Virus record (IMG/VR): IMGVR_UViG_3300002098_000002
Length of the DNA stretch: 64,000 nucleotides
DNA from: a virus
Direction: 5' to 3' (one strand)
Shown: positions 4,613 through 12,904 of the stretch, piece by piece
Layout of the letters: each line of letters starts with the position of its first letter
Numbering within the stretch: position 1 is the first letter of the stretch
Notes under the pieces: generated by a model
Told to the model about the DNA's origin: nothing
Databases searched by the model: none
The model's input: the letters and a program-made list of their open reading frames with translations, nothing else
Translations under genes and position numbers: made by a program

Positions 4613-5279
4613 TGTAACCCTTGTTGCTGTGGATACACGTTCTCACGCATTGACGAGGTTGGCACTAGATAAGTGTAAGCAGTTTGTAGATTTTGGTGAT
4701 GTTCAGTTCCACACTGACAAACCAGACTTCATGGAAGCCCTTGAAACTTATGTGAAAACTCCATTTTTCCAAGAGTTAACACATGTGGCGGCGTGGTGCT
4801 GGTATGGCGTCCCGCAAACAATTAAGACCAGCCACGTGCTGTTCATCCACTGGGATAGCTGGATACTAGATCCAACTGCTTGGACAGATGATTTCCTTAC
4901 ATATGACTACATCGGTGCCCCATGGGAATGGCACAAGGATGGCATGACTGTGGGGAATGGTGGCTTCTGTTTGCGCTCAAAGAAGTTGATGGATTTCCTA
5001 GTTGAACACAAAGAAGACTACCCGCTTATGAGTCCTGAAGATGACATGCTGTGCAGGCAGTACCGCAGGCCATACCTTGAGAAAGAAGGCTTCAAATGGC
5101 CTTCCACAGAAGTAGCCCTAAAGTTTGCTTTCGAACGCTCTGTACCACAAACAGAGCACTTTGGATTCCATGGTGCCTTTAACTGGTGGCGGGTGCTTAC
5201 ACCTGATGAATTCTCAGAACGGATCAAGTTGATAGCTGAAATTCCATCCATGCACAAAATGCTGTTCCAGCAACAATAG
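4593..5279 (+). CDS. glycosyltransferase-like protein (DUF5672-like)
   Basis: 228 aa overlapping the upstream gene by 20 nt. LPDVTLVAVDT..., IHWDSWIL and GNGGFCLRSKKL resemble what I recall of the DUF5672 family. Assignment is from memory only. Confidence 0.4.
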   Translation: MKLQLPDVTLVAVDTRSHALTRLALDKCKQFVDFGDVQFHTDKPDFMEALETYVKTPFFQELTHVAAWCWYGVPQTIKTSHVLFIHWDSWILDPTAWTDDFLTYDYIGAPWEWHKDGMTVGNGGFCLRSKKLMDFLVEHKEDYPLMSPEDDMLCRQYRRPYLEKEGFKWPSTEVALKFAFERSVPQTEHFGFHGAFNWWRVLTPDEFSERIKLIAEIPSMHKMLFQQQ

Positions 5280-5305
5280 CCTTTATGTTTAGGGAAGGAT
5301 AGGAA

Positions 5306-5464
5306 ATGCCATTATACGAATTATATAGCAATATTGTGGGCAGTTTGTTTCCGGGTCCAGAAGATAGACGGGAAAGGATGCGACGTAAAATAGCAGAAGA
5401 ATCTATTGGAAAACCAACGCCAAAAACTGATGATGAACCCCCGGACAATACAAAGAAAGCATAA
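5306..5464 (+). CDS. small hypothetical protein
   Basis: 52 aa, below the ORF-track cutoff. AGGGAAGGATAGGAA lies before the ATG. The TAA overlaps the next ATG (TAATG). Confidence 0.4.
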   Translation: MPLYELYSNIVGSLFPGPEDRRERMRRKIAEESIGKPTPKTDDEPPDNTKKA

Positions 5465-5664
5465 TGGGTTACGCAAAAGGATACCCTAAGGGTGCCCGTA
5501 TTATGCAGGAAGAGCGGGCCAAGGAAATAGTCAGGCTTTATCGGGAAGGTAAAGGATGGACCTGTATAGGTGACACCCTTGGTATGGATAAAAGCAATGT
5601 ACGCCGCACGTACATAAAAGAAGTGGCCGCTAAACCATTGAAAACAAAAGCCATCGTAAAATAA
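5464..5664 (+). CDS. small HTH protein
   Basis: 66 aa. IVRLYREGKGWTCIGDTLGMDKSNVRRTY looks like a resolvase/sigma-r4-type helix-turn-helix. Confidence 0.5.
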   Translation: MGYAKGYPKGARIMQEERAKEIVRLYREGKGWTCIGDTLGMDKSNVRRTYIKEVAAKPLKTKAIVK

Positions 5665-5687
5665 AAAGATAAAATGCAACGAAGTGC

Positions 5688-5716
5688 TTTACAAATGGTT
5701 TTACCCCCGCTAAATC
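5688..5716 (+). promoter_or_regulatory. candidate sigma70-type promoter ahead of the tRNA array
   Basis: TTTACA (5688-5693), a 17 nt spacer, then TAAATC (5711-5716). It is the first such match after the last early CDS and lies upstream of the structured leader and the tRNAs. Confidence 0.35.
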
Positions 5717-5722
5717 AAAATC

Positions 5723-6055
5723 ACGTTTTTGACTTTCAACCTTCTGAGAACGAACTTGCGCCACACGACGTATATTCAATCAGTCACCAGCCCCGGCCCG
5801 AAGTGGGCCGTGAGGGATAGTGCGCGACTGAATATGTGCTCGAAAGGCGAAACAGGGTTGATACAGAGTTAACTAAGCAGGGTCTAACCTCCCTGCTGAT
5901 GCAGGTGAAGGAAAAGACCCAAGCTACCCTACCGGGTCCTTCCCTTCACTTTAGAACACGCGGCTGGCCCCTCCTTAATTGGAAGCTTTGGGATTCCCGG
6001 CAAAGCGCTCACTGTGGAAAAGCGGCTTAGCTGCGCGCCTCACAGGCACTTATTT
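5723..6055 (+). ncRNA. candidate structured leader or ncRNA upstream of the first tRNA
   Basis: Roughly 330 nt without a convincing ORF. Stems seen: GGCCC-GAAGT-GGGCC, CAGGG...CCCTG, CCTGC-TGAT-GCAGG and CTGTG...CACAG. There is also a 16 bp helix, GTGAAGGAAAAGACCC/GGGTCCTTCCCTTCAC (5905-5950), with two A-C mismatches. Confidence 0.3.
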
Positions 6056-6130
6056 TCTGGCTTAGTTCAATGGGGAGAACACCGCCCTCGTAAAGCGGAG
6101 ACGGAAGTTCGATACTTCCAGCCAGAACCA
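6056..6130 (+). tRNA. tRNA-Thr(CGU)
   Basis: Acceptor TCTGGCT/AGCCAGA, D stem GTTC/GAAC, anticodon loop CTCGTAA, T arm GGAAG-TTCGATA-CTTCC, encoded ACCA. Confidence 0.85.
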
Positions 6131-6135
6131 ATACT

Positions 6136-6209
6136 GCCCTTGAAGCATTGTGACGATGCAGCGCCCTTGTAATGCGCAGAGCCGAGTTTGATTCTCGGCT
6201 GGGGCTCCA
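6136..6209 (+). tRNA. tRNA-Thr(UGU)
   Basis: Acceptor GCCCTTG/CTGGGGC with one mismatch, D stem GCAT/ATGC, anticodon loop CTTGTAA, T arm CCGAG-TTTGATT-CTCGG, encoded CCA. Confidence 0.8.
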
Positions 6210-6357
6210 AGCCGTGTGGTCTACCGCGTTGGCGAACTTGTAGACATCTGGCCCTGCACTTAATCCGGCTGACGATCTGCTGAAATGCAGTGAAACGCGA
6301 AAGCGCCCCGTGGAATCGCCCCAGCAGGGGAATAACTGGCGATCTAGGCCAACATTT
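6210..6357 (+). ncRNA. structured 148-nt spacer between tRNA-Thr genes (candidate ncRNA)
   Basis: No ORF. Hairpins: GTCTAC-N15-GTAGAC, CTGC-TGAAAT-GCAG, CGC-GAAA-GCG (GNRA loop) and CCCC-AGCA-GGGG, nested inside CGCC...GGCG. Confidence 0.3.
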
Positions 6358-6432
6358 GCTCCCTTAGTGCTAGTGGCAACACGCCCTCTTGGTATGGGGG
6401 AAAGACTGGATCGATACCAGTAGGGAGCACCA
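6358..6432 (+). tRNA. tRNA-Thr(GGU)
   Basis: Acceptor GCTCCCT/AGGGAGC, anticodon stem CCCTC/GGGGG, loop TTGGTAT, T arm ACTGG-ATCGATA-CCAGT, encoded ACCA. Confidence 0.8.
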
Positions 6433-6441
6433 TTTTAAAAT

Positions 6442-6523
6442 GCGCAAGTGGCGTAACGGTAGCCGCGCTGGTCTTAGAAACCAGTCCTTCGGGGTAGGAG
6501 TTCGAGTCTCCTCTTGCGCACCA
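6442..6523 (+). tRNA. tRNA-Leu(UAG)
   Basis: Acceptor GCGCAAG/CTTGCGC, anticodon stem CTGGT/ACCAG, loop CTTAGAA, long variable arm TCCTTCGGGGTA, T arm AGGAG-TTCGAGT-CTCCT, encoded CCA. Confidence 0.9.
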
Positions 6524-6527
6524 ATAC

Positions 6528-6601
6528 GGCCCCATAATTCAATGGTAGAATGCCTCCCTGTCACGGAGAGAACGCCGGATCATAACCGGCTGGGGTCGCC
6601 A
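6528..6601 (+). tRNA. tRNA-Asp(GUC)
   Basis: Acceptor GGCCCCA/TGGGGTC, D stem ATTC/GAAT, anticodon loop CTGTCAC, T arm GCCGG-ATCATAA-CCGGC, encoded CCA. Confidence 0.85.
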
Positions 6602-6606
6602 TTTAA

Positions 6607-6683
6607 CTCCGTGTAGCGCAGTCTGGTAGCGCGTCTGATTTGGGATCAGAAGGTCGCAGGTTCGAACCCTGCCACGGAGACCA
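6607..6683 (+). tRNA. tRNA-Pro(UGG)
   Basis: Acceptor CTCCGTG/CACGGAG, D stem GCGC/GCGC, anticodon stem TCTGA/TCAGA, loop TTTGGGA, T arm GCAGG-TTCGAAC-CCTGC, encoded CCA. Confidence 0.9.
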
Positions 6684-6689
6684 TTTCTT

Positions 6690-6764
6690 GGGGGTGTAGC
6701 TCAACGGTAGAGCTGGCTTTTCATAGGAGCTAGGTCGTGGGTTCAACTCCTACCGCCCCTACCA
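6690..6764 (+). tRNA. tRNA-Met-type (CAU), elongator Met or Ile2
   Basis: Acceptor GGGGGTG/CGCCCCT, D stem GCTC/GAGC, anticodon loop TTCATAG, T arm GTGGG-TTCAACT-CCTAC, encoded CCA. Confidence 0.85.
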
Positions 6765-6776
6765 TATAGGTGAAAC

Positions 6777-7136
6777 ATGCGCGTCGTTGCAAAGCTAGAT
6801 GGAAGCACAGTGCCAGCTTGCTTGTACCTGCACATCTTTGATGCCCCCGGCGATAGGCTGCATCAGAAGTACCGGCACATGATTGAACTCTACAGGCAGG
6901 CCCTTATCAAGGGATGTCATGAGTCCAAAATTCATCTACCGTTTACGACAACTATAGATTTGTGGGTGCATTTCATTGATCCATGTGCGCCTGACTACGA
7001 TCATCTACTCACTGCCCTTTACCAAGCCTTGGATGGTAAACTCCTAGGTAAGGGCGCAAAGCCAGTGCTGTTTTCAGATGACGGAATTGTAGGTACAGTC
7101 CGCAACATCAGTCAGTCAAAGACTACATACAAATAA
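6777..7136 (+). CDS. RusA-like Holliday junction resolvase (putative)
   Basis: 119 aa. PDYDHLLTALYQALDG...FSDDGIVG parallels the RusA DxDNxxKxxxDAL...DDxxV catalytic pattern. The gene sits inside the tRNA array. Confidence 0.5.
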   Translation: MRVVAKLDGSTVPACLYLHIFDAPGDRLHQKYRHMIELYRQALIKGCHESKIHLPFTTTIDLWVHFIDPCAPDYDHLLTALYQALDGKLLGKGAKPVLFSDDGIVGTVRNISQSKTTYK

Positions 7137-7213
7137 CGCCATATAGCTCAGCCGGACAGAGCGTAGGTTTCCGGAACCTAAGGCCAGAGGTTCGACTCCT
7201 CTTATGGTGACCA
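7137..7213 (+). tRNA. tRNA-Arg(CCG)
   Basis: Acceptor CGCCATA/TATGGTG, D stem GCTC/GAGC, anticodon stem TAGGT/ACCTA, loop TTCCGGA, T arm AGAGG-TTCGACT-CCTCT, encoded CCA. Confidence 0.85.
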
Positions 7214-7306
7214 AGTTTGACGGTGCTGCCGCTCAGCTTTCATCACATCGCGAGTGCGTTGAAAGTGATCCCTTGGTGATGCAGGATTAGGAGTACCGTC
7301 AAAACT
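7214..7306 (+). ncRNA. 93-nt stem-enclosed structured element (candidate small RNA)
   Basis: AGTTTGACGGT (7214-7224) pairs with ACCGTCAAAACT (7295-7306), giving 11 bp with one bulge. The enclosed part has CTTTCA...TGAAAG and CGC-GAGT-GCG hairpins. It occupies a slot between two tRNAs but has no T arm. Confidence 0.3.
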
Positions 7307-7315
7307 AACTAGTTA

Positions 7316-7403
7316 GGAAGGATGGCCGAGCGGATTATGGCAGCAGTCTTGAAAACTGAAGAACCGAAAGGTTCCGTGGGTTCGAATCCTACTCCTTCCG
7401 CCA
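7316..7403 (+). tRNA. tRNA-Ser(UGA)
   Basis: Acceptor GGAAGGA/TCCTTCC, anticodon loop CTTGAAA, long variable arm AGAACCGAAAGGTTCC, T arm GTGGG-TTCGAAT-CCTAC, encoded CCA. Confidence 0.88.
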
Positions 7404-8074
7404 TTTGTGAAGCATGTTCTGCCTTACATAACAGAGTGTATGGCAGTGGACGTTTCTGTGGCAGTACCTGTGCACGGTCCTTTTCTACCAAGAAGGATCG
7501 AATATGTATAAATGCAAAATTATCTGCGGCATCAAAACGCCTAGGCCTTAGGCCCCCTTCACAAAAAGGGAAAACAAGAAGTTTAGGGACACGCCAAAAG
7601 GTATCAGAAGCGTTGCTTAGGTTTTTTGAAACCAAAAACAATGGCCCTTCAAGAAGGGGCCGTTATGGGTTTCATGGCCCTACAAAAGAGAAACGTAATT
7701 GTAAAAATTGTGAGAAACCCTTCTTTTGTGATGGCTTTTCAGACGCAAAATGTTGCAAACCAAATTGCACACATGAAAGAAGGATTGCTGCTTATCAAGC
7801 AGAAGTTCTTGGGAAGGTTCTTCAAAACCTTCCAATTCAGAAAAAGCATTTACGTCGTTACTTGTTAAAAACATATGGTGTTTGTAAGACTTGTGGTATA
7901 AAGGAATGGCAAGGAAAACTTTTATCCCTTCAAATACACCATAAAGATTTTAATTCAAAAAATAACATTCTTTCCAATGTAGAACTGCTCTGTCCAAATT
8001 GTCATAGTTTGACAGACAATTATACTGGAAAAGGTAGTAAAGGGATTTCCAGGAAAAAGAAATCTGTTGCCTAA
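7403..8074 (+). CDS. HNH homing endonuclease with N-terminal zinc finger and NUMOD3-like motif
   Basis: HHKDFNSKNNILSNVELLCPNCH is an HNH motif. CEAC...GSGRFCGSTCA is a zinc finger. GKTRSLGTRQKVSEAL is NUMOD3-like. The ORF is open from inside tRNA-Ser (7322) and there is no ATG after the tRNA, so the start is uncertain (ATT 7403 or GTG 7436). Confidence 0.75.
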   Translation: MCEACSALHNRVYGSGRFCGSTCARSFSTKKDRICINAKLSAASKRLGLRPPSQKGKTRSLGTRQKVSEALLRFFETKNNGPSRRGRYGFHGPTKEKRNCKNCEKPFFCDGFSDAKCCKPNCTHERRIAAYQAEVLGKVLQNLPIQKKHLRRYLLKTYGVCKTCGIKEWQGKLLSLQIHHKDFNSKNNILSNVELLCPNCHSLTDNYTGKGSKGISRKKKSVA

Positions 8075-8139
8075 CCAAAATCATGTGACTTCGGATGTAA
8101 AAGCACATAGCTTGGGAGTACTAGCCCAGCACCATTTGA

Positions 8140-8216
8140 CGCGCTGTAGAGGAGTCCGGTTTCCTTGCCACGCTCATAACGTGGAGACACAGGTTCAAAT
8201 CCTGTCGGCGCAACCA
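8140..8216 (+). tRNA. tRNA-fMet-like (CAU) with C1-A72 mismatch
   Basis: Acceptor CGCGCTG/CGGCGCA leaves C1 opposite A72. D stem GAGG/CCTT, anticodon stem CCACG/CGTGG, loop CTCATAA, T arm ACAGG-TTCAAAT-CCTGT, encoded ACCA. Confidence 0.75.
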
Positions 8217-8230
8217 ATACGGAGTTACCC

Positions 8231-8419
8231 ATGCAATGGAAATATACTGCACTTTTTACTCTGGATGAAAAGACGGAGTGGAAGTCAGGTATAGTGGAAG
8301 CTAACAGCGCCAGCATTGCAGAAGATATGGTTTATGATCCCCTGCCGCTTGGAGCGCAGGGTGTTTGTATAAGTGCTGAGTCCTTAGGTGGACCTAATCA
8401 GTTACGGGTTGAGGAATAG
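8231..8419 (+). CDS. small hypothetical protein
   Basis: 62 aa with GGAG 7 nt upstream of the ATG. The stop lies 13 nt inside the predicted 5' end of the tRNA-Tyr-like gene, so either this ORF or that tRNA boundary is uncertain. Confidence 0.4.
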   Translation: MQWKYTALFTLDEKTEWKSGIVEANSASIAEDMVYDPLPLGAQGVCISAESLGGPNQLRVEE

Positions 8420-8494
8420 TGGCGACGGCAAGGTCACGGCGGACTGTAAACCCGCTCCTTATAGGCAGAGGTTCGACTCCTCCCTCACCCACCA
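8407..8494 (+). tRNA. tRNA-Tyr(GUA)-like, atypical acceptor and D region
   Basis: Anticodon loop CTGTAAA on stem GCGGA/CCCGC, long variable arm TCCTTATAGGC, T arm GAGG-TTCGACT-CCTC, 3' CTCACCC-A-CCA. The 5' acceptor GGTTGAG has one mismatch and the D region GTGGC-N9-GTCAC is oversized. Length without CCA is 85 nt, as in bacterial tRNA-Tyr. Confidence 0.55.
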
Positions 8495-8614
8495 GATGAG
8501 ACCGCATACAAGTAACAGCACGATGATGCTAATAAGGGTCTCAATCATGACAACCTCCAATGGTTATGTTTAGAACGTTCATGAACAGATTAAGTTTCAT
8601 CAAAGGAGTACAAC

Positions 8615-8995
8615 ATGACTACCCCTATTTTTTCTGGAAAAATAAATATGAAAGGCTGGGAGCTGGGGGAGAAAACCCAAGAAAAGATTATTAAGAGAAT
8701 AACAAAAGCGGCAGAGAAACTAACCACGTGGCTTCTTGCAGAAGAAAATGATCAACGCTTTGTTACTTTCGCAAGGAGCTTCCGCACCAAAATGGTTTCT
8801 CCTTTGGAGATTGATATCCTTTTTAGTGAACAGAAAAATTCCCCAAGACTGAGCTTCGATCTCAGCACAGTCATAGATGACTTGATTGAAAGTTACATGC
8901 ACGGTAACGATGATAAAGTTATTAGTGCTGTTCTTAAGCAATTGAAGAAAAAAGTAACTGAATTAGAAACTGTTATAGAGAAAAATAAAACTTAA
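8615..8995 (+). CDS. hypothetical protein
   Basis: 126 aa with AAAGGAG 7 nt upstream of the ATG. Charged and helical-looking. No family recognised. Confidence 0.65.
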   Translation: MTTPIFSGKINMKGWELGEKTQEKIIKRITKAAEKLTTWLLAEENDQRFVTFARSFRTKMVSPLEIDILFSEQKNSPRLSFDLSTVIDDLIESYMHGNDDKVISAVLKQLKKKVTELETVIEKNKT

Positions 8996-8996
8996 T

Positions 8997-9067
8997 GGGG
9001 ACTCCGGTGGGCCGGTCGCTGCACTTGCAATGCGGTACAGAGGATTCAATTTCCTCAGTCTCCACCA
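8997..9067 (+). tRNA. tRNA-Ala(UGC) with minimised D arm
   Basis: Acceptor GGGGACT/AGTCTCC includes a G3-U70 wobble, the Ala identity element. Anticodon stem CTGCA/TGCGG, loop CTTGCAA, T arm GAGGA-TTCAATT-TCCTC, encoded ACCA. The D region is only 15 nt (CCGG-TGGG-CCGG-TCG). Confidence 0.6.
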
Positions 9068-9074
9068 AGTTTAT

Positions 9075-9149
9075 TCTCCGGTAGCTGAGTGGTACAGCAG
9101 TCGCCTGTTAAGCGAATGATCGCACGTTCGATCCGTGCCCGGAGAGCCA
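9075..9149 (+). tRNA. tRNA-Asn(GUU)
   Basis: Acceptor TCTCCGG/CCGGAGA, D stem GCTG/CAGC, anticodon loop CTGTTAA, T arm GCACG-TTCGATC-CGTGC, encoded CCA. Confidence 0.88.
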
Positions 9150-9173
9150 ATTTAAGCTCAGAGAGTATTATAA

Positions 9174-9467
9174 ATGTCCGTAGAACAAAATAGAAAAGCT
9201 TATAAGAAATACTATAATACCCGTAGAGTAGTCCTTATTGCGCAAAGGCAGAAGTTTATTTCAGACTTAAAGTTAAATCTGGGCTGTTCTATTTGTGGAT
9301 ACAACAAGTGTGCTCGTGCCTTACACTTTCATCATAAAGAAAATAAAGATGAAGGCATTGCAAGAATGTGCCGGACTTCTGGACTACAAAGCATTAAATC
9401 TGAGATAGAAAAATGTATTCTTGTTTGCGCCAATTGCCATGCTGAGATTCATGATGCCATTAAATAG
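9174..9467 (+). CDS. HNH endonuclease
   Basis: 97 aa. CSICG...LHFHHKENKD...CILVCANCHAEIH is an HNH motif. It is paralogous by eye to the minus-strand ORF at 11005-11490. Confidence 0.8.
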   Translation: MSVEQNRKAYKKYYNTRRVVLIAQRQKFISDLKLNLGCSICGYNKCARALHFHHKENKDEGIARMCRTSGLQSIKSEIEKCILVCANCHAEIHDAIK

Positions 9468-9480
9468 GCAGTACCAATAA

Positions 9481-9557
9481 CTTCGCGTAGCTCAGCAGGA
9501 CAGAGCGCCCGTCTACGAAACGGGAGGTCGTAGGATCGAAGCCTACCGCGAAGGCCA
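9481..9557 (+). tRNA. tRNA-Arg(ACG)
   Basis: Acceptor CTTCGCG/CGCGAAG, D stem GCTC/GAGC, anticodon stem CCCGT/ACGGG, loop CTACGAA, T arm GTAGG-ATCGAAG-CCTAC, encoded CCA. Confidence 0.9.
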
Positions 9558-9596
9558 AGACGTATTGTTAAAACAAACCAACTGGAGTTAAGTAAA

Positions 9597-10814
9597 ATGC
9601 AAGGCAAAAGTATCTTAATCAGGTTCTTTGCTACTATTCTAGTGATTTTCGGATCAGGCATCGTTTCCAGCATATACAATCCGCAAGCTACCTTGATTGC
9701 TGGAAAAGTGGCAGGTCAGCAGTTTTCCCCAAGTGACGGAGCGTACCTTTCAGCGAGTTACATCCTTAGTTCACTAAGCACTGTGAACGTGATAATCGGG
9801 TTGCTTGCCCTGCTATTGCTAGTGTGCATCTGGTTTGCACCAGCGCGTTTACTGGTTGAAGCACTTAAAGCATCTTCAGTAGTTGCTTTGTTGGCTTTCT
9901 CAGGGATTGGAAGAGCTGATGCCTACTACGACACAAAAGATATAACTGAAGCCTACACCATCCTTCCAAATGAAAGTGCCTTTTGGATCCCCGATGTTGG
10001 TAACAACAAGGATGATCAAGCAAAGATGGATAGTGAGGCTTATTACGCAGCCAACAAACTGGCTGTAAAACGCTTCTTGATCCCCCACGTAAAACTCAGT
10101 GGTACTGGTGGTTCATGGGGGTGGGATGCTTACGTGCCCGCTGGCCGTTTGATCATTGTCCCGCGCACACCATATTCCCGTGAATGGGTGGATGCCCATG
10201 ATCGCGGTACTGCTAAAACTAAGCAGGGCTTCCCTTGTCAAACAAAAGAAGGTTTGAACATTACGGCAGGTGTATCGATTGGAACATCCGTCATGGAAGC
10301 AAATGCGGCCAAATACTTGTATAGGGCAGGCGTTGCTAACAGCACCACACAAGGTGCTGTAAGGACCGACCCCGCTGTAATTTTCCAATCAGTTTACTAT
10401 GGCCGTAGCCTTGAAAACTTTATGGATGACATCGGCAGAAAAAAGGTACAGACCCTGATTTGCGCCGAAATATCATCCAGAACCTTTGATCAAGCTAATG
10501 CAGATACAAACCCTATAATGGTCAAGGTTGAAAAGGATGCCAAGGACTACTTCGCTGCCTATGGCATTACCTTGGATTTCATTGGGTGGGCCGATACGTT
10601 CACCTTCGATGATCCTGTTCAGAAGGCTGTGAATGACAAATACATTGCCAACTCTTTGGCTTCAGCTATGACCACGCTTCAGGCTGTGGCACAGTTGAAG
10701 GTGCAAGAGGGCCTTGGCTCAGGCTTGGCTAATAAGGGGCTGCCAATCGTGGTTACCCCTGATATGATTAACGCTTTGATCGGGTTGGTTAAGGCACCAC
10801 CTCCGGTTAAGTAA
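9597..10814 (+). CDS. membrane protein, SPFH/band-7-like (putative)
   Basis: 405 aa with about three N-terminal TM helices. The soluble part follows an SPFH-like pattern: AFWIPDVG...RFLIPHV...GLNITAGVSIGTSV...AAKYLY...YGITLDFIGWADTFTFDDPVQKAVN. Confidence 0.45.
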   Translation: MQGKSILIRFFATILVIFGSGIVSSIYNPQATLIAGKVAGQQFSPSDGAYLSASYILSSLSTVNVIIGLLALLLLVCIWFAPARLLVEALKASSVVALLAFSGIGRADAYYDTKDITEAYTILPNESAFWIPDVGNNKDDQAKMDSEAYYAANKLAVKRFLIPHVKLSGTGGSWGWDAYVPAGRLIIVPRTPYSREWVDAHDRGTAKTKQGFPCQTKEGLNITAGVSIGTSVMEANAAKYLYRAGVANSTTQGAVRTDPAVIFQSVYYGRSLENFMDDIGRKKVQTLICAEISSRTFDQANADTNPIMVKVEKDAKDYFAAYGITLDFIGWADTFTFDDPVQKAVNDKYIANSLASAMTTLQAVAQLKVQEGLGSGLANKGLPIVVTPDMINALIGLVKAPPPVK

Positions 10815-10821
10815 CTGGTTT

Positions 10822-10895
10822 CGCCCCTTAGCTTAGTGATAAAGCAACGGACTCTGACTCCGTGGACCTCAGTTTGATTCTGAGAGGGGCTGCCA
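10822..10895 (+). tRNA. tRNA-Gln(CUG)
   Basis: Acceptor CGCCCCT/AGGGGCT with an unpaired 1-72 position. D stem GCTT/AAGC, anticodon stem ACGGA/TCCGT, loop CTCTGAC, T arm CTCAG-TTTGATT-CTGAG, encoded CCA. Confidence 0.8.
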
Positions 10896-10902
10896 ATTTC
10901 AT

Positions 10903-10976
10903 GGTGTGGTGGCCGAATGGTTAGGCTGGAGATTGCAACCCTCCCAATGCGTGTTCGATTCACGCCCACACCTCCA
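10903..10976 (+). tRNA. tRNA-Cys(GCA)
   Basis: Acceptor GGTGTGG/CCACACC, anticodon loop TTGCAAC, T arm GCGTG-TTCGATT-CACGC, discriminator T, encoded CCA. Confidence 0.85.
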
Positions 10977-10981
10977 AATTT

Positions 10982-11063
10982 GCCCTCGTAGCCAGTTAGG
11001 ACTTCTAATCCTTTATCTGTAGTGGAGCTGAAAACGCGGGTTCAAATCCTGCCGAGGGTGCCA
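10982..11063 (+). pseudogene. aberrant tRNA-like gene (possible Arg-UCU hairpin, no canonical D arm)
   Basis: The acceptor GCCCTCG/CGAGGGT and T arm GCGGG-TTCAAAT-CCTGC plus GCCA are good. The 47-nt core does not fold into a cloverleaf. The only hairpin is AGGA-CTTCTAA-TCCT. The 3' two thirds is antisense to the end of the HNH ORF. Confidence 0.4.
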
Positions 11064-11490
11064 GTCTCTTTAAAGAACTCTTTCCTGCACTTTCTTTTGC
11101 GTGATGTATCCTGTGACAATTTGAACAAAGGATAATACATTTTTCAATCTCTAACTTGGCCTTACTTATCTGACCTTTTCTAAAAAGGTTACTAACCTCA
11201 GAATCTTTAGATTTTGGATCTATGTGATGAAAATCTAAAGCTGCTGGATGAGAATTGAAACCACAATTTTTGCACCCTTTTCCAAGTTTTACAGAATCTA
11301 ACCAAGCCCTTTTAACTATCTTGCTTTGCGTGTTCTTTAAACCCAGACGTATTTTGTGTTTAAGATAATAGGCTTTGGCTGCGTTACTAGAACAATTTTT
11401 GCAAGATCTGGAAAAGCCATCTTTATGTGTTCTGTCTTTGCTAAAAGACGAGAGGGCTTGTAGTTGTTTACAACGGTAACACTTTTTCAT
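11005..11490 (-). CDS. HNH endonuclease
   Basis: 161 aa. CKNCGFNSHPAALDFHHIDPKSKD...CIILCSNCHRIHH is an HNH motif. This is the only minus-strand gene in the left arm. Its last 18 or so codons read antisense through the aberrant tRNA. Confidence 0.8.
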   Translation of the reverse strand: MKKCYRCKQLQALSSFSKDRTHKDGFSRSCKNCSSNAAKAYYLKHKIRLGLKNTQSKIVKRAWLDSVKLGKGCKNCGFNSHPAALDFHHIDPKSKDSEVSNLFRKGQISKAKLEIEKCIILCSNCHRIHHAKESAGKSSLKRLAPSAGFEPAFSAPLQIKD

Positions 11491-11518
11491 ATCTTTATGA
11501 TAAACAAGTTCTGAAAAA

Positions 11519-11550
11519 GTGTAAAGGTTCGAGTCCTCGCCGGAGCACCA
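11519..11550 (+). pseudogene. tRNA 3' fragment (T loop, acceptor 3' strand and CCA only)
   Basis: GGTTCGAGTCC-TCG-CCGGAGC-A-CCA is followed by the spacer AATAC seen after other tRNAs. There is no matching 5' acceptor (GCTCCGG) upstream, and the T stem pairs for only 3 bp. Confidence 0.45.
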
Positions 11551-11554
11551 ATAC

Positions 11555-11630
11555 GGTCACGTACATCAGAGGATAGATGGCCCCGGTCCTAACGGGGAGG
11601 CCGCAGGTTCGAATCCTGCCGTGATCACCA
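11555..11630 (+). tRNA. tRNA-Arg(CCU)
   Basis: Acceptor GGTCACG/CGTGATC, D stem CATC/GATG, anticodon stem CCCCG/CGGGG, loop GTCCTAA, T arm GCAGG-TTCGAAT-CCTGC, encoded CCA. Confidence 0.88.
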
Positions 11631-11637
11631 ATTCAAT

Positions 11638-11729
11638 GGAAAGATGGGTGAGTGGTTTAAACCAGCGGTTTGCTAAACCGCCGACTGCCGTAAAGCGGTC
11701 CGGGAGTTCGAATCTCCCTCTTTCCGCCA
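11638..11729 (+). tRNA. tRNA-Ser(GCU)
   Basis: Acceptor GGAAAGA/TCTTTCC, anticodon stem GCGGT/ACCGC, loop TTGCTAA, 20-nt variable arm, T arm GGGAG-TTCGAAT-CTCCC, encoded CCA. Confidence 0.88.
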
Positions 11730-11732
11730 ATT

Positions 11733-11806
11733 GCTGGTATAGCTCAATGGTAGAGCCACGGTCTTCCAAACCGTTGACGCGGGTCCGATTCCCGCTACCC
11801 GCTCCA
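11733..11806 (+). tRNA. tRNA-Gly(UCC)
   Basis: Acceptor GCTGGTA/TACCCGC with a 3-70 mismatch. D stem GCTC/GAGC, anticodon stem ACGGT/ACCGT, loop CTTCCAA, T arm GCGGG-TCCGATT-CCCGC, encoded CCA. Confidence 0.78.
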
Positions 11807-11809
11807 ATT

Positions 11810-11884
11810 GCCCCGTTAGTTTACTGGCTAGAACACTGGTCCTTCAAACCGGGAGAAGCGGATCGATACCGCTACGGGGTACCA
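11810..11884 (+). tRNA. tRNA-Glu(UUC) with C at position 33
   Basis: Acceptor GCCCCGT/ACGGGGT, D stem GTTT/GAAC, anticodon stem CTGGT/ACCGG, loop CCTTCAA, T arm AGCGG-ATCGATA-CCGCT, encoded CCA. Confidence 0.78.
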
Positions 11885-11889
11885 ATTAC

Positions 11890-11963
11890 AGCCGATTCGT
11901 TCAATGGTAGGACGCGAGACTTTGAAGCTCGCTACGAAGGTTCGATTCCTTCATCGGCTTCCA
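11890..11963 (+). tRNA. tRNA-Gln(UUG)
   Basis: Acceptor AGCCGAT/ATCGGCT, D stem GTTC/GGAC, anticodon loop CTTTGAA, T arm GAAGG-TTCGATT-CCTTC, encoded CCA. Confidence 0.85.
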
Positions 11964-11964
11964 G

Positions 11965-12035
11965 CGCGCTGCTTTCGGCAAAGGCTGGCCTTTCATACGG
12001 GCCACAAGTTGGATCGACACCAACCTGCGCGACCA
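11965..12035 (+). tRNA. tRNA (CAU) with minimised D arm, Met or Ile2
   Basis: Acceptor CGCGCTG/CTGCGCG with one mismatch. Anticodon stem GGCCT/GGGCC, loop TTCATAC, T arm GTTGG-ATCGACA-CCAAC, encoded ACCA. The D region is only 15 nt (CTTT-CGGC-AAAG-GCT), the same layout as the Ala gene. Confidence 0.55.
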
Positions 12036-12040
12036 TTTAT

Positions 12041-12116
12041 GCTAGGTAGGCCGATCAGGTGATGGCGCGGGGCTGTGGACTCCGTTAGGCTGGATCGATA
12101 CCAGCACCTAGTACCA
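12041..12116 (+). tRNA. tRNA-His(GUG), A73 and no encoded G-1/C73 pair
   Basis: Acceptor GCTAGGT/ACCTAGT, anticodon stem CGGGG/CTCCG, loop CTGTGGA, T arm GCTGG-ATCGATA-CCAGC, discriminator A, encoded CCA. The base before position 1 is T. Confidence 0.82.
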
Positions 12117-12120
12117 ATAC

Positions 12121-12198
12121 GGGAGTGTAGCTTAGCCTGGTCTAAAGCATGGAGCCCCAACCTCCAGATCGTGGGTTCAAATCCTACCTCTCTCGCCA
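12121..12198 (+). tRNA. tRNA-Trp(CCA) with C at position 33
   Basis: Acceptor GGGAGTG/CTCTCTC with one mismatch. D stem GCTT/AAGC, anticodon stem TGGAG/CTCCA, loop CCCCAAC, T arm GTGGG-TTCAAAT-CCTAC, encoded CCA. Confidence 0.78.
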
Positions 12199-12283
12199 TG
12201 TTTTATTCTGGGTTTACAGGGTTTTATCAGGGTGTTAAGCCGTGCCCGTTAACCTAGGTATTAACAACATAAGGATGTTCCTG

Positions 12284-12571
12284 ATGAAGAATGTACTTGC
12301 TGGACTTGCTGTTGGCGTTGCTCTCCTTGCCGCTGCCCCTGCTATGGCTGCGGATGCCAACGGTAACCGTTCATATACCCGTAGCAACGTCGTGCTGACC
12401 AGTATGCTTACTGGTGCTGTCGTTGGCGGTGTTGCTGCTGCCGTACTGTGCCCGCCTTGTAGCGTTGGCACGGTAGCCCTTACCAGCCTTGGAGCTGTGG
12501 GCGTAGGCGTAGGCGTAGGCGCTGGCACGGGCCTAGCCCTTGCCTATGCTACCAGCCGTGGTAACCTGTAA
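12284..12571 (+). CDS. secreted glycine-zipper protein
   Basis: Signal peptide MKNVLAGLAVGVALLAAAPAMA followed by ADANG. The C-terminal half has GxxxG-type repeats and GVGVGVGAG. AAGGA lies 9 nt upstream of the ATG at 12284. The ORF is open from 12242. Confidence 0.6.
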   Translation: MKNVLAGLAVGVALLAAAPAMAADANGNRSYTRSNVVLTSMLTGAVVGGVAAAVLCPPCSVGTVALTSLGAVGVGVGVGAGTGLALAYATSRGNL

Positions 12572-12594
12572 ACCTTACTAGGGACCTGCAACTA

Positions 12595-12627
12595 AGCCCC
12601 TCGGCCTTCATTGGCCGGGGGCTTTTT
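12595..12627 (+). terminator. rho-independent terminator
   Basis: AGCCCC(T)CGGCC-TTCATT-GGCCGGGGGCT followed by TTTTT. Confidence 0.8.
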
Positions 12628-12645
12628 CATTTGTGGAGTTAAAAA

Positions 12646-12891
12646 ATGACTTTGAGAGTAACAGTTGAAATAGTGCCCTTTGGTGATGAAGATAAGTCTT
12701 ATGAAATTGGCAGGCTGGACATCTTCAACAAAGGTCACGTTGATTTTGGCCACTGCGAATACGGTGTGCTGGATCTAAGTAAGGCCACAGATGCTGGCGA
12801 ATTCATTAAAACAGTCCTGCACAGGCGCGATCTTGGGGCTTGGGAGCTTATACGTAAGGCAATCACAGAATTAAAGATTACAGGCCCCTAA
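12646..12891 (+). CDS. hypothetical protein (terminator-bracketed single gene)
   Basis: 81 aa with TGGAG 8 nt upstream of the ATG. It lies between two intrinsic terminators. Confidence 0.6.
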   Translation: MTLRVTVEIVPFGDEDKSYEIGRLDIFNKGHVDFGHCEYGVLDLSKATDAGEFIKTVLHRRDLGAWELIRKAITELKITGP

Positions 12892-12904
12892 TCAGGGGCC
12901 TTTT
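12883..12904 (+). terminator. rho-independent terminator
   Basis: GGCCCCT-AATC-AGGGGCC followed by TTTT. It overlaps the stop codon of 12646-12891. Confidence 0.8.

What the first reader, a model, noticed from the sequence alone, without database searches (positions are those of the whole stretch)
5688..12198. Very large phage tRNA array with genes and structured spacers interleaved
Manual cloverleaf folding gives 24 tRNA genes on the plus strand, and every one encodes its CCA. The set is Thr x3, Leu, Asp, Pro, three CAU-anticodon tRNAs, Arg x3, Ser x2, Tyr, Ala, Asn, Gln x2, Cys, Gly, Glu, His and Trp. I saw no Val, Phe, Lys or Ile(GAU). There is also one aberrant tRNA-like gene and one 3' fragment. 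Three HNH genes, a RusA-like gene, an SPFH-like membrane protein, two small ORFs and three non-coding structured segments interrupt the array. An array of this size and breadth suggests either translational autonomy or replacement of host tRNAs destroyed by anticodon nucleases.
Basis: partly seen in the sequence, partly recalled or inferred. Interest (0 to 1): 0.65.

Follow-up and report, generated by a model that had tools for sequence, protein, structure and literature searches.

The report
Phage tRNA operon with sensor-like leader
This uncultured phage carries a real operon of 24 tRNA genes, a worn-down copy of a ~36-tRNA operon shared by many phages and some Bradyrhizobium genomes, and it is preceded by a conserved leader whose tiny reading frame uses almost every amino acid, which suggests a switch that senses tRNA shortage.

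Summary
They also recover one degenerate tRNA and one 3' tRNA fragment, three HNH genes and an SPFH-like gene.

The array is not unique to this phage. At least 20 viral contigs (GC 44-62%) and several Bradyrhizobium genomes carry the same array in the same gene order, with up to about 36 tRNAs covering all 20 amino acids. The window copy has lost about 11 tRNAs and has been invaded by homing endonuclease genes. One of these destroyed tRNA-Arg(UCU).

It is the operon leader, made of a sigma-70-like promoter, a 38-codon upstream ORF and hairpins.

In array-associated leaders the peptide holds 19-20 of the 20 amino acids. In the window, its codons match 21 of the 22 array anticodons (0 of 20,000 random windows reach this).

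The same leader RNA precedes rtcB, an RNA repair ligase gene, in Bradyrhizobium.

My inference is a translation-sensing leader that links tRNA shortage to expression of the array. The "RusA-like" call is not confirmed, and the codon-usage test is negative.

The parts
5688..5716 (+). Sigma-70-like promoter of the tRNA operon (TTTACA, 17 nt, TAAATC)
   Evidence: Read from the sequence. TTGACA-N17-TAnnnn sits at the equivalent place in 7 relatives (alignment A4). TTTACAAAT is also found in the Bradyrhizobium rtcB leaders. Not among the top hits of the generic promoter scan.
5756..5872 (+). Leader upstream ORF: TTG start (inferred), 37 sense codons, TAA stop. Peptide (M)RHTTYIQSVTSPGPKWAVRDSARLNMCSKGETGLIQS
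   Evidence: Its stop lies 4 nt before hairpin A; in 29 homologues the stop (TAA, TAG or TGA) lies 0-4 nt before hairpin A. The peptide has 19 of 20 amino acids. Its codons are cognate to 21 of 22 array anticodons, with 0 of 20,000 random windows as high.
5794..5810 (+). Hairpin inside the upstream ORF (CGGCCC GAAGT GGGCCG)
   Evidence: Relatives have a hairpin at the same place with different sequence: CCGC..GCGG in L060 and GCCGG..CCGGC in the rtcB leaders. This was read by eye and not scored.
5877..5896 (+). Leader hairpin A (segment 1 GCAGGGUCU, segment 2 CCUCCCUGC)
   Evidence: RNAfold MFE. Homologous to GGCAGNGGG..CCCUCUGCC in relatives.
5901..5949 (+). Leader hairpin B: GUGAAGG / CCUUCAC closing stem, conserved internal motif AAAAGACCC, inner stem GACCC/GGGUC
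   Evidence: RNAfold. Relatives close the same hairpin with GGCAG/CUGCC, so the window's stem is fully compensatory.
5950..6055 (+). 3' domain of the leader, including a 22-nt block (6017-6038) identical in relative L041
   Evidence: blastn and nhmmer (E = 2.7e-5). No Rfam match at E <= 10.
6056..6209 (+). tRNA-Thr(CGU) 6056-6130 and tRNA-Thr(UGU) 6136-6209
   Evidence: ARAGORN; Rfam 60.5 and 36.9 bits; CCA encoded.
6210..6357 (+). Spacer S2: a lineage-specific 148-nt insert with no support as a structured RNA
   Evidence: z = +0.53. No homologue in relatives. Thr-UGU and Thr-GGU are adjacent in L142. The equivalent gaps in other relatives hold unrelated sequence and tRNA-half remnants.
6358..6764 (+). 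tRNA-Thr(GGU) 6358-6432, Leu(UAG) 6442-6523, Asp(GUC) 6528-6601, Pro(UGG) 6607-6683, CAU no. 1 6690-6764 (probably Ile2, AUA-reading)
   Evidence: ARAGORN and Rfam. The orthologue of CAU no. 1 in L039 carries anticodon UAU.
6777..7136 (+). Conserved array-embedded protein (119 aa; 'RusA-like' not confirmed)
   Evidence: Sits between the same two tRNAs in at least 15 related arrays. 413 homologous clusters. No Pfam or PHROG hit. Foldseek found no PDB match.
7137..7213 (+). tRNA-Arg(CCG)
7214..7315 (+). Spacer S3: a 102-nt hairpin with complementary ends (AGUUUGACGGUGCU / AGUACCGUCAAAACU), specific to this lineage
   Evidence: z = -2.16. Arg-CCG and Ser are adjacent in L033, L142 and L143. No other copy in the window.
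7316..7403 (+). tRNA-Ser(UGA)
7322..8074 (+). HNH homing endonuclease gene 1. The open frame runs back into tRNA-Ser, so the true start is uncertain.
   Evidence: Pfam HNH E = 4e-4; PHROG HNH families down to 1e-17.
8140..8216 (+). CAU no. 2, initiator-like (C1 x A72 mismatch)
8406..8494 (+). tRNA-Tyr(GUA), non-canonical (irregular acceptor and T stems), CCA at 8492-8494
   Evidence: ARAGORN -ps90. Weak Rfam tRNA-Sec hit of 22.1 bits. Positional orthologues in relatives.
8615..8995 (+). ORF of 126 aa, unknown function, inserted in the array
   Evidence: Called in all population copies. No family hit. No homologue in the related arrays.
8997..9149 (+). tRNA-Ala(UGC) 8997-9067 (compact D arm, G3:U70 kept) and tRNA-Asn(GUU) 9075-9149
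   Evidence: ARAGORN -ps90 and default. The Ala orthologue is called at default settings in L033 and others, with compensatory D-stem changes.
9174..9467 (+). HNH homing endonuclease gene 2
   Evidence: PHROG 2255 E = 1.8e-22. In L035 a GIY-YIG-like ORF occupies the same post-Asn site.
9481..9557 (+). tRNA-Arg(ACG)
9597..10814 (+). SPFH/Band-7-like membrane protein, an insert not shared by related arrays
   Evidence: Pfam Band_7 23.1 bits against a cut-off of 23.6. Homologues elsewhere are not next to tRNAs.
10822..10976 (+). tRNA-Gln(CUG) 10822-10895 and tRNA-Cys(GCA) 10903-10976
10982..11063 (+). Degenerate tRNA ('X'): a remnant of tRNA-Arg(UCU). Acceptor and T arms are intact; D and anticodon arms are scrambled.
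   Evidence: Rfam 31.3 bits. ARAGORN structure. An intact Arg(UCU) occupies this slot in L027, L033, L036, L039, L041, L042, L045, L046 and L142. Alignment A1.
11005..11490 (-). HNH homing endonuclease gene 3 on the minus strand. Its last 19 codons and its stop lie inside X.
   Evidence: Pfam HNH 22.1 bits; PHROG 2255 E = 2.9e-38. Promoter-like site at 11525-11497.
11523..11550 (+). 3' tRNA fragment (partial T arm, acceptor 3' strand, CCA), closest to the 3' end of Arg(UCU) in L027
   Evidence: Sequence; alignment A2.
11555..12198 (+). tRNA-Arg(CCU) 11555-11630, Ser(GCU) 11638-11729, Gly(UCC) 11733-11806, Glu(UUC) 11810-11884, Gln(UUG) 11890-11963, CAU no. 3 11965-12035 (compact D arm), His(GUG) 12041-12116, Trp(CCA) 12121-12198
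   Evidence: Same order in L027, which has 74% DnaB identity.
12598..12621 (+). Intrinsic-terminator-like hairpin, the probable end of the transcription unit (after the small ORF 12242-12571)
   Evidence: 9 pairs, 8 of them G-C, followed by a T run.

Best explanation
SHOWN.
- Window 5688-12621 is one plus-strand unit of an uncultured phage: promoter, about 340-nt leader, 24 CCA-encoding tRNA genes and a terminator.
- It is a derived member of a conserved-order tRNA operon family found in at least 20 viral contigs and in Bradyrhizobium genomes. The consensus is about 36 tRNAs for all 20 amino acids, with one conserved 115-aa protein between tRNA-CAU and tRNA-Arg(CCG).
- The window copy lacks about 11 of the consensus tRNAs. 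It has acquired three HNH homing endonuclease genes, an SPFH-like gene, an unknown ORF and two short inserts.
- One HNH gene sits where tRNA-Arg(UCU) used to be. It has left a degenerate tRNA on one side and a 3' fragment on the other.
- The leader holds a roughly 38-codon ORF that ends a few bases before two conserved hairpins.
- In array-linked leaders the peptide contains 19-20 of the 20 amino acids. Its codons call on almost every tRNA species that the array encodes.
- A homologous leader precedes rtcB in Bradyrhizobium.

INFERRED. The array is a stand-by tRNA supply, and the leader ORF works as a general sensor of tRNA availability.
1. When all charged tRNAs are present, ribosomes reach the stop codon and cover segment 1 of hairpin A. 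Segment 2 then pairs with segment 3.
2. When any tRNA is scarce or cleaved, for example by a host anticodon nuclease, ribosomes stall upstream. Hairpins A and B then form.
3. One of these two states lets transcription or processing continue into the tRNAs. In the rtcB version it frees the ribosome-binding site.

Which state is 'on' is not established, and neither is the regulated step for the tRNA version.
For: tRNA genes..

Phage identity. PHROG hits to portal, DNA polymerase and helicase. There is no close cultured relative.

Family and conserved order..

Functional constraint on the tRNAs. Stems change by compensation between the window and L027 or L033. G3:U70 is retained in the Ala tRNA.

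HNH disruption of Arg(UCU)..

Accessory island. DnaB relatives at 58-64% identity have no tRNAs at this locus.

Leader conservation.. The leader pattern lies 149-269 nt upstream of Thr-first arrays in 11 of 15 viral hits, and 359-467 nt upstream of 14-18-tRNA arrays in 5 Bradyrhizobium genomes.

Upstream ORF.
- In 28 of 29 homologues an open frame of more than 40 codons ends in TAA, TAG or TGA 0-4 nt before hairpin A; L107 keeps the stop but only 15 open codons. Relatives have GAGA-N5-6-ATG starts.
- The same arrangement is present in L142 and L145, which were found through the protein rather than the RNA pattern.

Amino-acid diversity of the peptide.
- Array leaders: 19-20 distinct amino acids. 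Background 38-aa windows: mean 15.6, P(20) = 0.0019.
- Fixed window of the last 34 codons: array leaders mean 18.7, rtcB leaders 13.8, other reading frames 14.4.

Anticodon sampling. The window's leader samples 21 of 22 anticodons, against a background of 12.1 +/- 2.05 (0 of 20,000 random windows). Six relatives give P from below 1e-4 to 0.04.

Alternative folds when segment 1 is masked..

Compensatory variants of the pairing between segment 1 and the hairpin-B loop..

Links to RNA repair. rtcB lies downstream of the homologous leader. rtcB directly follows the array in phage L142. rsr lies beside arrays in L027, L034, L035, L037 and L043.

Literature. Long tRNA arrays are co-induced with rtcB and an HNH gene under translational stress in Anabaena (PMC8421152).
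Against: - There are no expression, ribosome-profiling or structure-probing data.
- The window's upstream ORF has no ATG and needs a TTG start.
- In the window, hairpin B is still predicted to form when segment 1 is masked, so the switch is less clear here than in L060 or L041.
- No U-rich terminator follows hairpin B, so the step being regulated is unidentified.
- The hairpin arms are highly conserved in sequence and partly palindromic. Many homologues were retrieved with a pattern that fixes those arms, so covariation there cannot be measured. A protein-binding site, on DNA or RNA, would fit the same data.
- Individual helices between segment 1 and the B loop are not significant alone (shuffle P 0.03-0.9).
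- One population variant (L017) carries an 82-bp deletion that breaks the upstream ORF, so the ORF is not indispensable in every genome.
- The array has lost many tRNAs and several survivors are non-canonical, which could equally mean decay.
- The host is unknown.
Confidence: 0.55

Rival explanations
1. Codon-usage compensation. The phage keeps tRNAs for codons that it uses more than its host does, so that its own genes, especially late genes, are translated efficiently.
For: Eight of the 22 anticodons have U34 and read A-ending codons. That fits a 48% GC phage if the host has a higher GC content. This is the classical explanation for phage tRNAs (reviewed in PMC10264068).
Against: - The encoded tRNAs cover 55% of codons in both the early-strand and the late-strand genes. 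They often miss the preferred codons (GGU/GGC, CUU, GCU/GCC) and serve rare ones (GGA/GGG, CGG, CUA).
- The same anticodon set and order persist in genomes from 44 to 62% GC, so the set is not tuned to each genome.
- The host is unknown, so the key comparison could not be made.
Confidence: 0.2
2. Selfish or decaying cassette. The array is a mobile tRNA cassette spread by homing endonucleases and recombination. In this phage it is eroding and contributes little. On this reading the leader ORF is incidental.
For: - Three HNH genes lie inside the array, and one of them destroyed a tRNA.
- About 11 consensus tRNAs are missing.
- Several tRNAs fall below the standard detection thresholds.
- The whole 9.4-kb region is absent from the syntenic site in DnaB relatives.
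- There is a natural deletion in the leader.
- T4 SegB is a precedent for endonuclease-driven inheritance of a tRNA region (PMC8421152 citing Brok-Volchanskaya 2008; PMC13096335).
Against: - Stems are maintained by compensatory changes across relatives, and CCA ends and G3:U70 are retained.
- Gene order is conserved over large sequence divergence.
- The leader peptide composition is far from random, and this is specific to array leaders.
Confidence: 0.15
3. The leader hairpins are binding sites for a regulator (a DNA operator or an RNA-binding protein), or a processive antitermination or processing signal. On this reading the small ORF is either a functional micro-protein or is not translated.
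For: - GGCAGAG / CTCTGCC occurs as near-perfect inverted and direct repeats with very high sequence conservation.
- A boxA-like TGTTCTTCGT lies just before the first tRNA in five relatives.
- In Anabaena the array and rtcB share promoter repeats bound by an unknown factor (PMC8421152).
Against: - The window and L041 change the arm sequences but keep the pairing (GCAGGG/CCCUGC; GUGAAGG/CCUUCAC).
- The spacing between arms varies from 3 to 14 nt.
- The elements lie about 190 nt downstream of the promoter.
- The fixed position of the stop codon and the all-amino-acid composition are not explained by this rival.
Confidence: 0.1

Closest known systems
tRNA gene regions of phages T4 and T5 with free-standing homing endonucleases (SegB in T4; HNH genes in the T5 tRNA region)
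   Same: Clustered same-strand tRNA genes in a lytic-type phage, interleaved with small ORFs and homing endonuclease genes. Endonuclease activity can reshape or amplify the region (PMC13096335; SegB reference cited in PMC8421152). Phage tRNAs can rescue translation from host tRNA nucleases (PMC11464382, PMC11555353).
   Different: There is no sequence relationship: no megablast hit to any deposited phage and no homologue of the embedded protein in INPHARED. The gene order is different and is conserved across a separate uncultured clade. As far as I know and could find, no leader ORF of this type has been described for T4 or T5.
Bacterial long tRNA arrays ('L-arrays'), e.g. the Anabaena sp. PCC 7120 trn operon (Santamaria-Gomez et al. 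2021, PMC8421152)
   Same: Long, non-periodic, horizontally transferred arrays that add redundant tRNAs. They are linked to an HNH endonuclease gene and to rtcB. They are proposed to be a stand-by tRNA set induced when translation is impaired.
   Different: In Anabaena the shared control element is a pair of 9-nt repeats over the -10 box and start site. Here the shared element is a transcribed leader of 340-400 nt with an upstream ORF and hairpins. The carrier here is a phage, and the taxonomic setting is alphaproteobacterial rather than cyanobacterial. Homology between the two array families was not tested.
Ribosome-mediated attenuators of amino-acid operons (trpL, hisL, leuL, thrL) and drug-sensing leader peptides (ermCL, catA86L)
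   Same: A short leader ORF with its own ribosome-binding site, followed immediately by mutually exclusive hairpins. The position of the ribosome is expected to choose the fold.
   Different: Classical leaders are enriched in one or two amino acids. This one carries about one codon for each of the 20. The regulated genes are tRNAs (or rtcB), not biosynthetic enzymes. No U-tract terminator follows the 3:4 hairpin.
rsr-Y RNA-rtcBA RNA repair operon of Salmonella (Hughes et al. 2020, cited in PMC8421152) and Ro60/Y RNA modules of mycobacteriophages
   Same: Relatives of this array sit next to rsr (Ro60) or rtcB, and the homologous leader lies directly upstream of rtcB.
   Different: The window has neither rsr nor rtcB. 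The leader gives no hit to Y RNA or YrlA models. Known rtcBA control is by the sigma-54 activator RtcR, not by a leader ORF.

Membership tests
Phage tRNA gene array | Many tRNA genes at high density on one strand | tested here: met
   24 tRNA genes plus 1 degenerate tRNA in 6.1 kb, all on the + strand.
Phage tRNA gene array | Located in a phage genome | tested here: met
   PHROG hits to portal (1e-170), DNA polymerase, DnaB-like helicase and amidase in the same window. The source contig is 87 kb.
Conserved-order tRNA operon family defined here (Thr-Thr-Thr-Leu...His-Trp) | Shared gene order, including the embedded 115-aa protein between tRNA-CAU and tRNA-Arg(CCG) | tested here: met
   The window keeps the order of all the genes it retains.
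Conserved-order tRNA operon family defined here | Conserved leader (promoter, upstream ORF, hairpins A and B) upstream of the first tRNA-Thr | tested here: met
L-arrays sensu Santamaria-Gomez et al. 2021 | Long non-periodic array, horizontally acquired, adding redundant tRNAs | tested here: met
   Non-periodic order. Absent from the syntenic site in DnaB relatives. The same array occurs in phages and in Bradyrhizobium genomes.
L-arrays sensu Santamaria-Gomez et al. 2021 | Association with an HNH gene and with rtcB | tested here: met
   Three HNH genes in the window. rtcB follows the array in L142 and shares the leader in Bradyrhizobium. rtcB itself is absent from the window.
L-arrays sensu Santamaria-Gomez et al. 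2021 | Silent in normal growth, induced by translational stress | not testable with these tools
   Needs expression data.
Ribosome-mediated attenuator | Translatable leader ORF with start codon and ribosome-binding site | tested here: inconclusive
   Relatives have GAGA-N5-6-ATG or GTG. The window has only TTG, preceded by GAGAACGAAC. Translation has not been shown.
Ribosome-mediated attenuator | Mutually exclusive hairpins (1:2, 2:3, 3:4) placed so that ribosome position selects the fold | tested here: inconclusive
   Met in L060 and L041. In the window, hairpin B persists when segment 1 is masked.
Ribosome-mediated attenuator | The 3:4 hairpin is an intrinsic terminator with a U tract | tested here: not met
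   Hairpin B is followed by AGAAGAA or UUUAGAAC. No + strand terminator is predicted between 5688 and 12598 outside tRNAs.
Ribosome-mediated attenuator | Leader enriched in codons of the regulated amino acid | tested here: not met
   The leader instead holds 19-20 different amino acids, about one to three of each. This is the variant feature.
RusA Holliday-junction resolvase (for ORF 6777-7136) | Match to Pfam PF05866 or to a RusA structure | tested here: not met
   No Pfam or PHROG hit for the window protein. Only 2 of 45 homologues touch RusA, at E about 0.03. The PDB profile search was empty. The AlphaFold model (pLDDT 71.9) has no Foldseek hit at E <= 1e-3. Three JGI records carry the name.
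Intron-containing or split tRNA (for X + HNH + fragment) | 5' and 3' exon halves that pair with each other across a group I intron carrying the endonuclease | tested here: not met
   X closes its own acceptor stem. The fragment's acceptor strand (CCGGAGC) does not pair with the 5' end of X (GCCCUCG). The HNH gene is on the opposite strand. There is no intron hit in Rfam.
Y RNA / YrlA, RNase P RNA, tmRNA (for the leader) | Covariance-model match | tested here: not met
   No Rfam hit at E <= 10 in the window leader, in L040 or in L070. ARAGORN finds no tmRNA.

The most novel reading that the evidence does not exclude
The 38-codon leader ORF is a 'pan-tRNA' sensor. It contains roughly one codon for every amino acid, and for 21 of the 22 tRNA species in the array. 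Loss of any one charged tRNA, for example through a host anticodon nuclease, would therefore stall the ribosome and refold the leader. That would switch on a stand-by tRNA operon in phages and Bradyrhizobium, and the tRNA repair ligase RtcB through a homologous leader. This would be a new class of attenuator that reports general tRNA integrity rather than the level of one amino acid.
Probability: 0.4. Interest if true: 0.85.

Novelty: new variant of a known kind. Interest (0 to 1): 0.7.

Why it matters
Why phages carry tRNAs has been debated for about 50 years. The current candidates are codon compensation and escape from host tRNA nucleases.

This locus offers a testable regulatory handle. 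It has a conserved leader whose small ORF appears built to test the supply of all tRNAs. The same leader RNA is wired to an RNA repair ligase in bacteria.

If the leader works as proposed:
- Some phage tRNA arrays would be inducible emergency supplies rather than constitutive helpers.
- Phage arrays would be connected to the bacterial 'L-array plus rtcB' translational-stress response.
- A new logic would be added to leader-peptide attenuation.

The family also shows how homing endonucleases erode and reshape tRNA arrays. It contains several conserved non-canonical tRNAs that standard detectors miss.

Tried and rejected
1. RNase P RNA-like leader. By eye, GAAGGAAAAGACCC and GGAAAAGCGGCUUAGC recalled CR-I and CR-V/P4 of RNase P RNA. 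No Rfam hit appeared in three searches, and the 3' motif is absent from most relatives. Dropped.

2. Group I intron. AAAGACUAAACGGCAGC resembles the P7/P9 region of tRNA introns. However, the TAA in it is the stop codon of the upstream ORF and varies to TAG and TGA. Dropped.

3. Y RNA or tmRNA. No model hits were found, and the window has no rsr.

4. Split or intron-bearing tRNA-Arg(UCU). Rejected; see the membership test.

5. S2 and S3 as conserved structured RNAs. Rejected.

6. RusA-like fold for ORF119. Not confirmed.

7. Anchors that did not lead to arrays.
- DnaB in IMG/VR gave six relatives without tRNAs.
- The SPFH homologue gave three loci without arrays.
- The junction motif CCAATACGG gave one unrelated array.
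- A tRNA-Gln pattern gave nothing.
- One scan only returned a locus already held.
The productive anchors were the tRNA-His pattern, the DnaB scan of metagenomes and the ORF119 alignment.

8. Formal covariation scoring of the whole leader. This was abandoned. Hairpin B varies too much in length for a reliable alignment, and the arms of hairpin A were fixed by the search pattern.

9. Host identification. Not achieved.

Full report
**1. The observation**

ARAGORN at default settings finds 21 tRNA genes, all on the plus strand, between 6056 and 12198. Rfam's tRNA model in sensitive mode gives 22 hits above its gathering score: the same 21 plus 10982-11060 at 31.3 bits.

Lowering the ARAGORN threshold to 90% adds exactly four calls. 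All are on the plus strand and all sit in gaps between other genes. They are Tyr-GUA (8409-8490, with ACCA following), Ala-UGC (8997-9067), a third CAU tRNA (11958-12035) and the aberrant element at 10982-11063. False positives on either strand appear only at 80% and below.

Every gene ends in NCCA. The 3' fragment lies at about 11523-11550.

The three HNH genes are confirmed. The SPFH assignment is borderline.

**2. What carries the array**

The window is phage DNA. PHROG matches include portal, DNA polymerase, helicases, SbcC-like nuclease and amidase.

It has no near match among 50,697 deposited phages, and its polymerase is only about 30% identical to the best of them.

The window derives from an 87-kb JGI metagenome contig. 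Copies that are about 99.98% identical occur in several other assemblies.

**3. The array belongs to a family**

Relatives with 58-64% DnaB identity have no tRNAs at this locus. In them, the homologue of window ORF 2958-3485 abuts dnaB, so about 9.4 kb of the window (3486-12967) is an accessory island.

A closer relative (L027, 74% DnaB identity) has Gln-Cys-Arg(UCU)-Arg(CCU)-Ser-Gly-[Glu]-Gln-CAU-His-Trp upstream of dnaB. This is the same order as in the window.

A tRNA-His pattern and an alignment of the embedded 119-aa protein then retrieved more than a dozen viral contigs with GC from 44 to 62%. Their arrays follow one order:

Thr(CGU), Thr(UGU), Thr(GGU), Leu(CAG/UAG), Leu(CAA), Val, Ile(GAU), Lys(UUU), Lys(CUU), Leu(GAG), Asp, Pro, CAU, [115-aa protein], Arg(CCG), Ser, CAU, Tyr, Gly(GCC), Phe, Ala, Asn, Glu(CUC), Arg(ACG), Pro(CGG), Gln, Cys, Arg(UCU), Arg(CCU), Ser(GCU), Gly(UCC), Glu(UUC), Gln(UUG), CAU, His, Trp.

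The window keeps this order but lacks about 11 members.

Stems differ between relatives by compensatory changes. The tRNAs that standard thresholds miss (Tyr, Ala, third CAU) have orthologues at the same positions.

- The Ala tRNA keeps G3:U70.
- The Ala tRNA and the third CAU tRNA share an unusual compact D arm: a 4-bp stem that starts at nucleotide 8, with a tetraloop.
- The first CAU tRNA is probably Ile2, because its orthologue in L039 has anticodon UAU.
- The second CAU tRNA has the initiator hallmark, a C1 x A72 mismatch.

**4. Erosion by homing endonucleases**

Compact relatives such as L033 fit about 25 tRNAs into 3 kb with no endonuclease genes. The window has three HNH genes, an SPFH-like gene, a 126-aa ORF and two short inserts.

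In nine relatives an intact tRNA-Arg(UCU) sits between Cys and Arg(CCU). In the window this slot holds three things:
- element X, whose acceptor and T arms are intact and homologous to Arg(UCU), while its D and anticodon arms are scrambled;
- a minus-strand HNH gene whose last 19 codons and stop codon lie inside X;
- a 3' tRNA fragment.

Other relatives carry endonuclease genes at other positions. L035 has a GIY-YIG-like gene exactly where the window has HNH-2, and L040 has two HNH homologues.

**5. The three "structured spacers"**

S2 (6210-6357) is no more stable than shuffled sequence and has no homologue. It is absent from L142.

S3 (7214-7315) is a hairpin with complementary ends. It is also absent from relatives.

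S1 (5688-6055) is different. It is conserved upstream of the first tRNA-Thr in every relative for which that region is held. It has no Rfam match.

**6. Anatomy of the leader**

A sigma-70-like promoter (window 5688-5716) lies about 340 nt before the first tRNA. Downstream are hairpin A (GGCAGNGGG..CCCUCUGCC; GCAGGG/CCCUGC in the window) and hairpin B. Hairpin B is closed by GGCAG/CUGCC in relatives and by GUGAAGG/CCUUCAC in the window. It has a conserved internal motif, A(G)AAAGACCC.

What looked like a conserved RNA motif (AAAGACUAA) is a stop codon. In 29 homologues, TAA, TAG or TGA lies 0-4 nt before hairpin A, and in 28 of them it ends an open frame of more than 40 codons. Relatives have GAGA-N5-6-ATG or GTG starts that give peptides of 35-50 aa. 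The window's ORF runs 5756-5872 and needs a TTG start.

L142 and L145 were found through the protein rather than the RNA. They show the same arrangement.

**7. The leader peptide is compositionally extraordinary**

In leaders that precede tRNA arrays, the peptide contains 19 or 20 of the 20 amino acids. In 20,000 windows of 38 aa taken from the phage's own proteins, the mean is 15.6 and all 20 occur with frequency 0.0019.

The result does not depend on my choice of start codon. Over a fixed window of the last 34 codons, the values are:

| Set | Mean number of distinct amino acids |
|---|---|
| Array leaders | 18.7 |
| Homologous rtcB leaders | 13.8 |
| Other reading frames of the same stretch | 14.4 |

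In the window, the 37 sense codons are cognate to 21 of the 22 distinct array anticodons. The background is 12.1 +/- 2.05, and 0 of 20,000 random windows reach 21. Six relatives give P from below 1e-4 to 0.04.

**8. Link to RNA repair**

A pattern built on the hairpins hits viral contigs mostly just upstream of Thr-first arrays (11 of 15 hits). In bacterial genomes it is concentrated in Bradyrhizobium and related alphaproteobacteria.
- In five Bradyrhizobium genomes the pattern precedes arrays of 14-18 tRNAs.
- In about 15 genomes, a homologous leader with promoter, upstream ORF, hairpins A and B and further hairpins precedes a gene with RtcB signature motifs.
- In those rtcB leaders, read by eye in four loci and not scored, the 3' arm of hairpin B is complementary to the rtcB ribosome-binding region.

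Phage L142 has rtcB (Pfam PF01139) directly after tRNA-Trp. Five relatives have a Ro60 (rsr) gene beside the array. The window has neither gene.

Published work on Anabaena shows a long tRNA array, an HNH gene and rtcB co-induced by translational stress through shared promoter repeats (PMC8421152). I found no paper that describes a leader ORF for tRNA arrays or for rtcB.

**9. Proposed mechanism (inference)**

The leader ORF may act as a general probe of tRNA supply.
1. A ribosome that reaches the stop codon would cover segment 1. Segments 2 and 3 then pair and hairpin B dissolves. RNAfold predicts this for L060 and L041.
2. A ribosome stalled upstream for lack of any tRNA would leave hairpins A and B intact.

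The regulated step for the tRNA version is not identified, because no U-tract terminator follows hairpin B. In the window itself hairpin B is predicted to survive masking of segment 1. One population variant has an 82-bp deletion that removes the stop codon from frame.

A regulator-binding or antitermination role for the repeats remains possible.

**10.

By standard wobble the array covers 37 of 61 codons. That is 55% of codon usage in both the early-strand and the late-strand genes, and there is no preference for the phage's favoured codons. Autonomy and simple codon matching are therefore not supported for this copy. The comparison with the host could not be made.

The tRNA-replacement idea fits the context described above and recent literature (PMC10264068, PMC11464382, PMC11555353). 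It is untested here.

**11. The embedded protein**

ORF 6777-7136 is the one protein conserved inside the array, with 413 homologous clusters of about 115 aa. The alignment shows invariant Asp residues and an IHDAPHRRMH motif.

It has no Pfam or PHROG hit, and the PDB profile search was empty. Its AlphaFold model (pLDDT 71.9) has no Foldseek match. Its function is unknown, and "RusA-like" rests only on three database names.

**12. Verdict**

The array is real and belongs to a known kind of feature: phage tRNA arrays, or L-arrays, with homing endonucleases. It is also a member of a previously undescribed, widely distributed family.

The conserved leader with its all-amino-acid ORF, shared in its RNA part with rtcB, is the unexpected element. 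It makes the "why do phages carry tRNAs" question experimentally approachable.

Noticed in passing
window 8459-8548 (- strand): Small hydrophobic ORF on the minus strand (MIETLISIIVLLLVCGLIWWVREESNLCL*). GGAGG lies 5 nt upstream of its ATG, and its 3' end overlaps tRNA-Tyr on the other strand. It could be a membrane peptide or toxin-like gene.
   Followed up: partly
L017 (population variant), window 5788-5869: One near-identical contig lacks 82 bp between CAGT repeats. The deletion puts the leader ORF's stop out of frame, so the ORF reads through both hairpins. It may be a natural regulatory mutant or an assembly artefact.
   Followed up: partly
window 6358-6432, 11810-11884, 11965-12035, 12041-12116: Four tRNAs (Thr-GGU, Glu, third CAU, His) have the T-loop AUCGAUA/AUCGACA, with A54 instead of the near-universal U54. 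The same loop recurs in relatives such as L033.
   Followed up: no
window 8997-9067 and 11965-12035; L033 1769-1840 and 2805-2900: tRNA-Ala(UGC) and the third CAU tRNA have a miniaturised D arm: a 4-bp stem directly after the acceptor stem, then a tetraloop. The arm is conserved with compensatory changes. Rfam's tRNA model misses both even at E <= 10.
   Followed up: partly
L040 8378-8479, L041 8699-8780, L046 8740-8828: In three relatives the gap between the second and third tRNA-Thr holds a tRNA 3' half (T arm plus acceptor strand), then a small hairpin, then a tRNA 5' half. The halves are in permuted order, and their anticodon-stem strands are complementary (CUCCC / GGGAG). This could be a duplication-deletion scar or something stranger.
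   Followed up: no
L041 4419-4489: A relative carries a tRNA with anticodon CUA, an amber-suppressor type that ARAGORN labels 'Pyl'. It lies 4 kb upstream of its array and scores 56.8 bits with Rfam, with a partial tRNA beside it.
   Followed up: no
L009 8930-9320: A viral contig found through the SPFH homologue encodes a permuted (two-piece) tmRNA and a tRNA-Arg(UCU).
   Followed up: no
window 6127-6135, 6520-6527, 8213-8222, 11547-11556, 12113-12122: The motif CCAAUAC(G/U)G recurs at five tRNA 3' junctions, and CCAAU(U) occurs at many others. It may be a processing signal or a trace of duplication.
   Followed up: no
window 7322-7403: The open frame of the first HNH gene extends back through almost the whole of tRNA-Ser(UGA), with no in-frame ATG after the tRNA. 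A CxxC motif begins right after the tRNA's CCA, so the gene's start probably overlaps the tRNA.
   Followed up: no
window 3749-5279 and 12242-12571: The accessory island also holds two glycosyltransferase-like genes (one with DUF5672). After the array it holds a Gly/Ala-rich small membrane-like ORF, followed by a strong terminator at 12598-12621.
   Followed up: no
L063, L075, L099, L106, L138 (Bradyrhizobium genomes): Cultured Bradyrhizobium strains carry 14-18-tRNA arrays with the same leader and a related gene order. This suggests prophage-derived or mobile arrays, and it points to Rhizobiales as hosts of the GC-rich relatives.
   Followed up: partly
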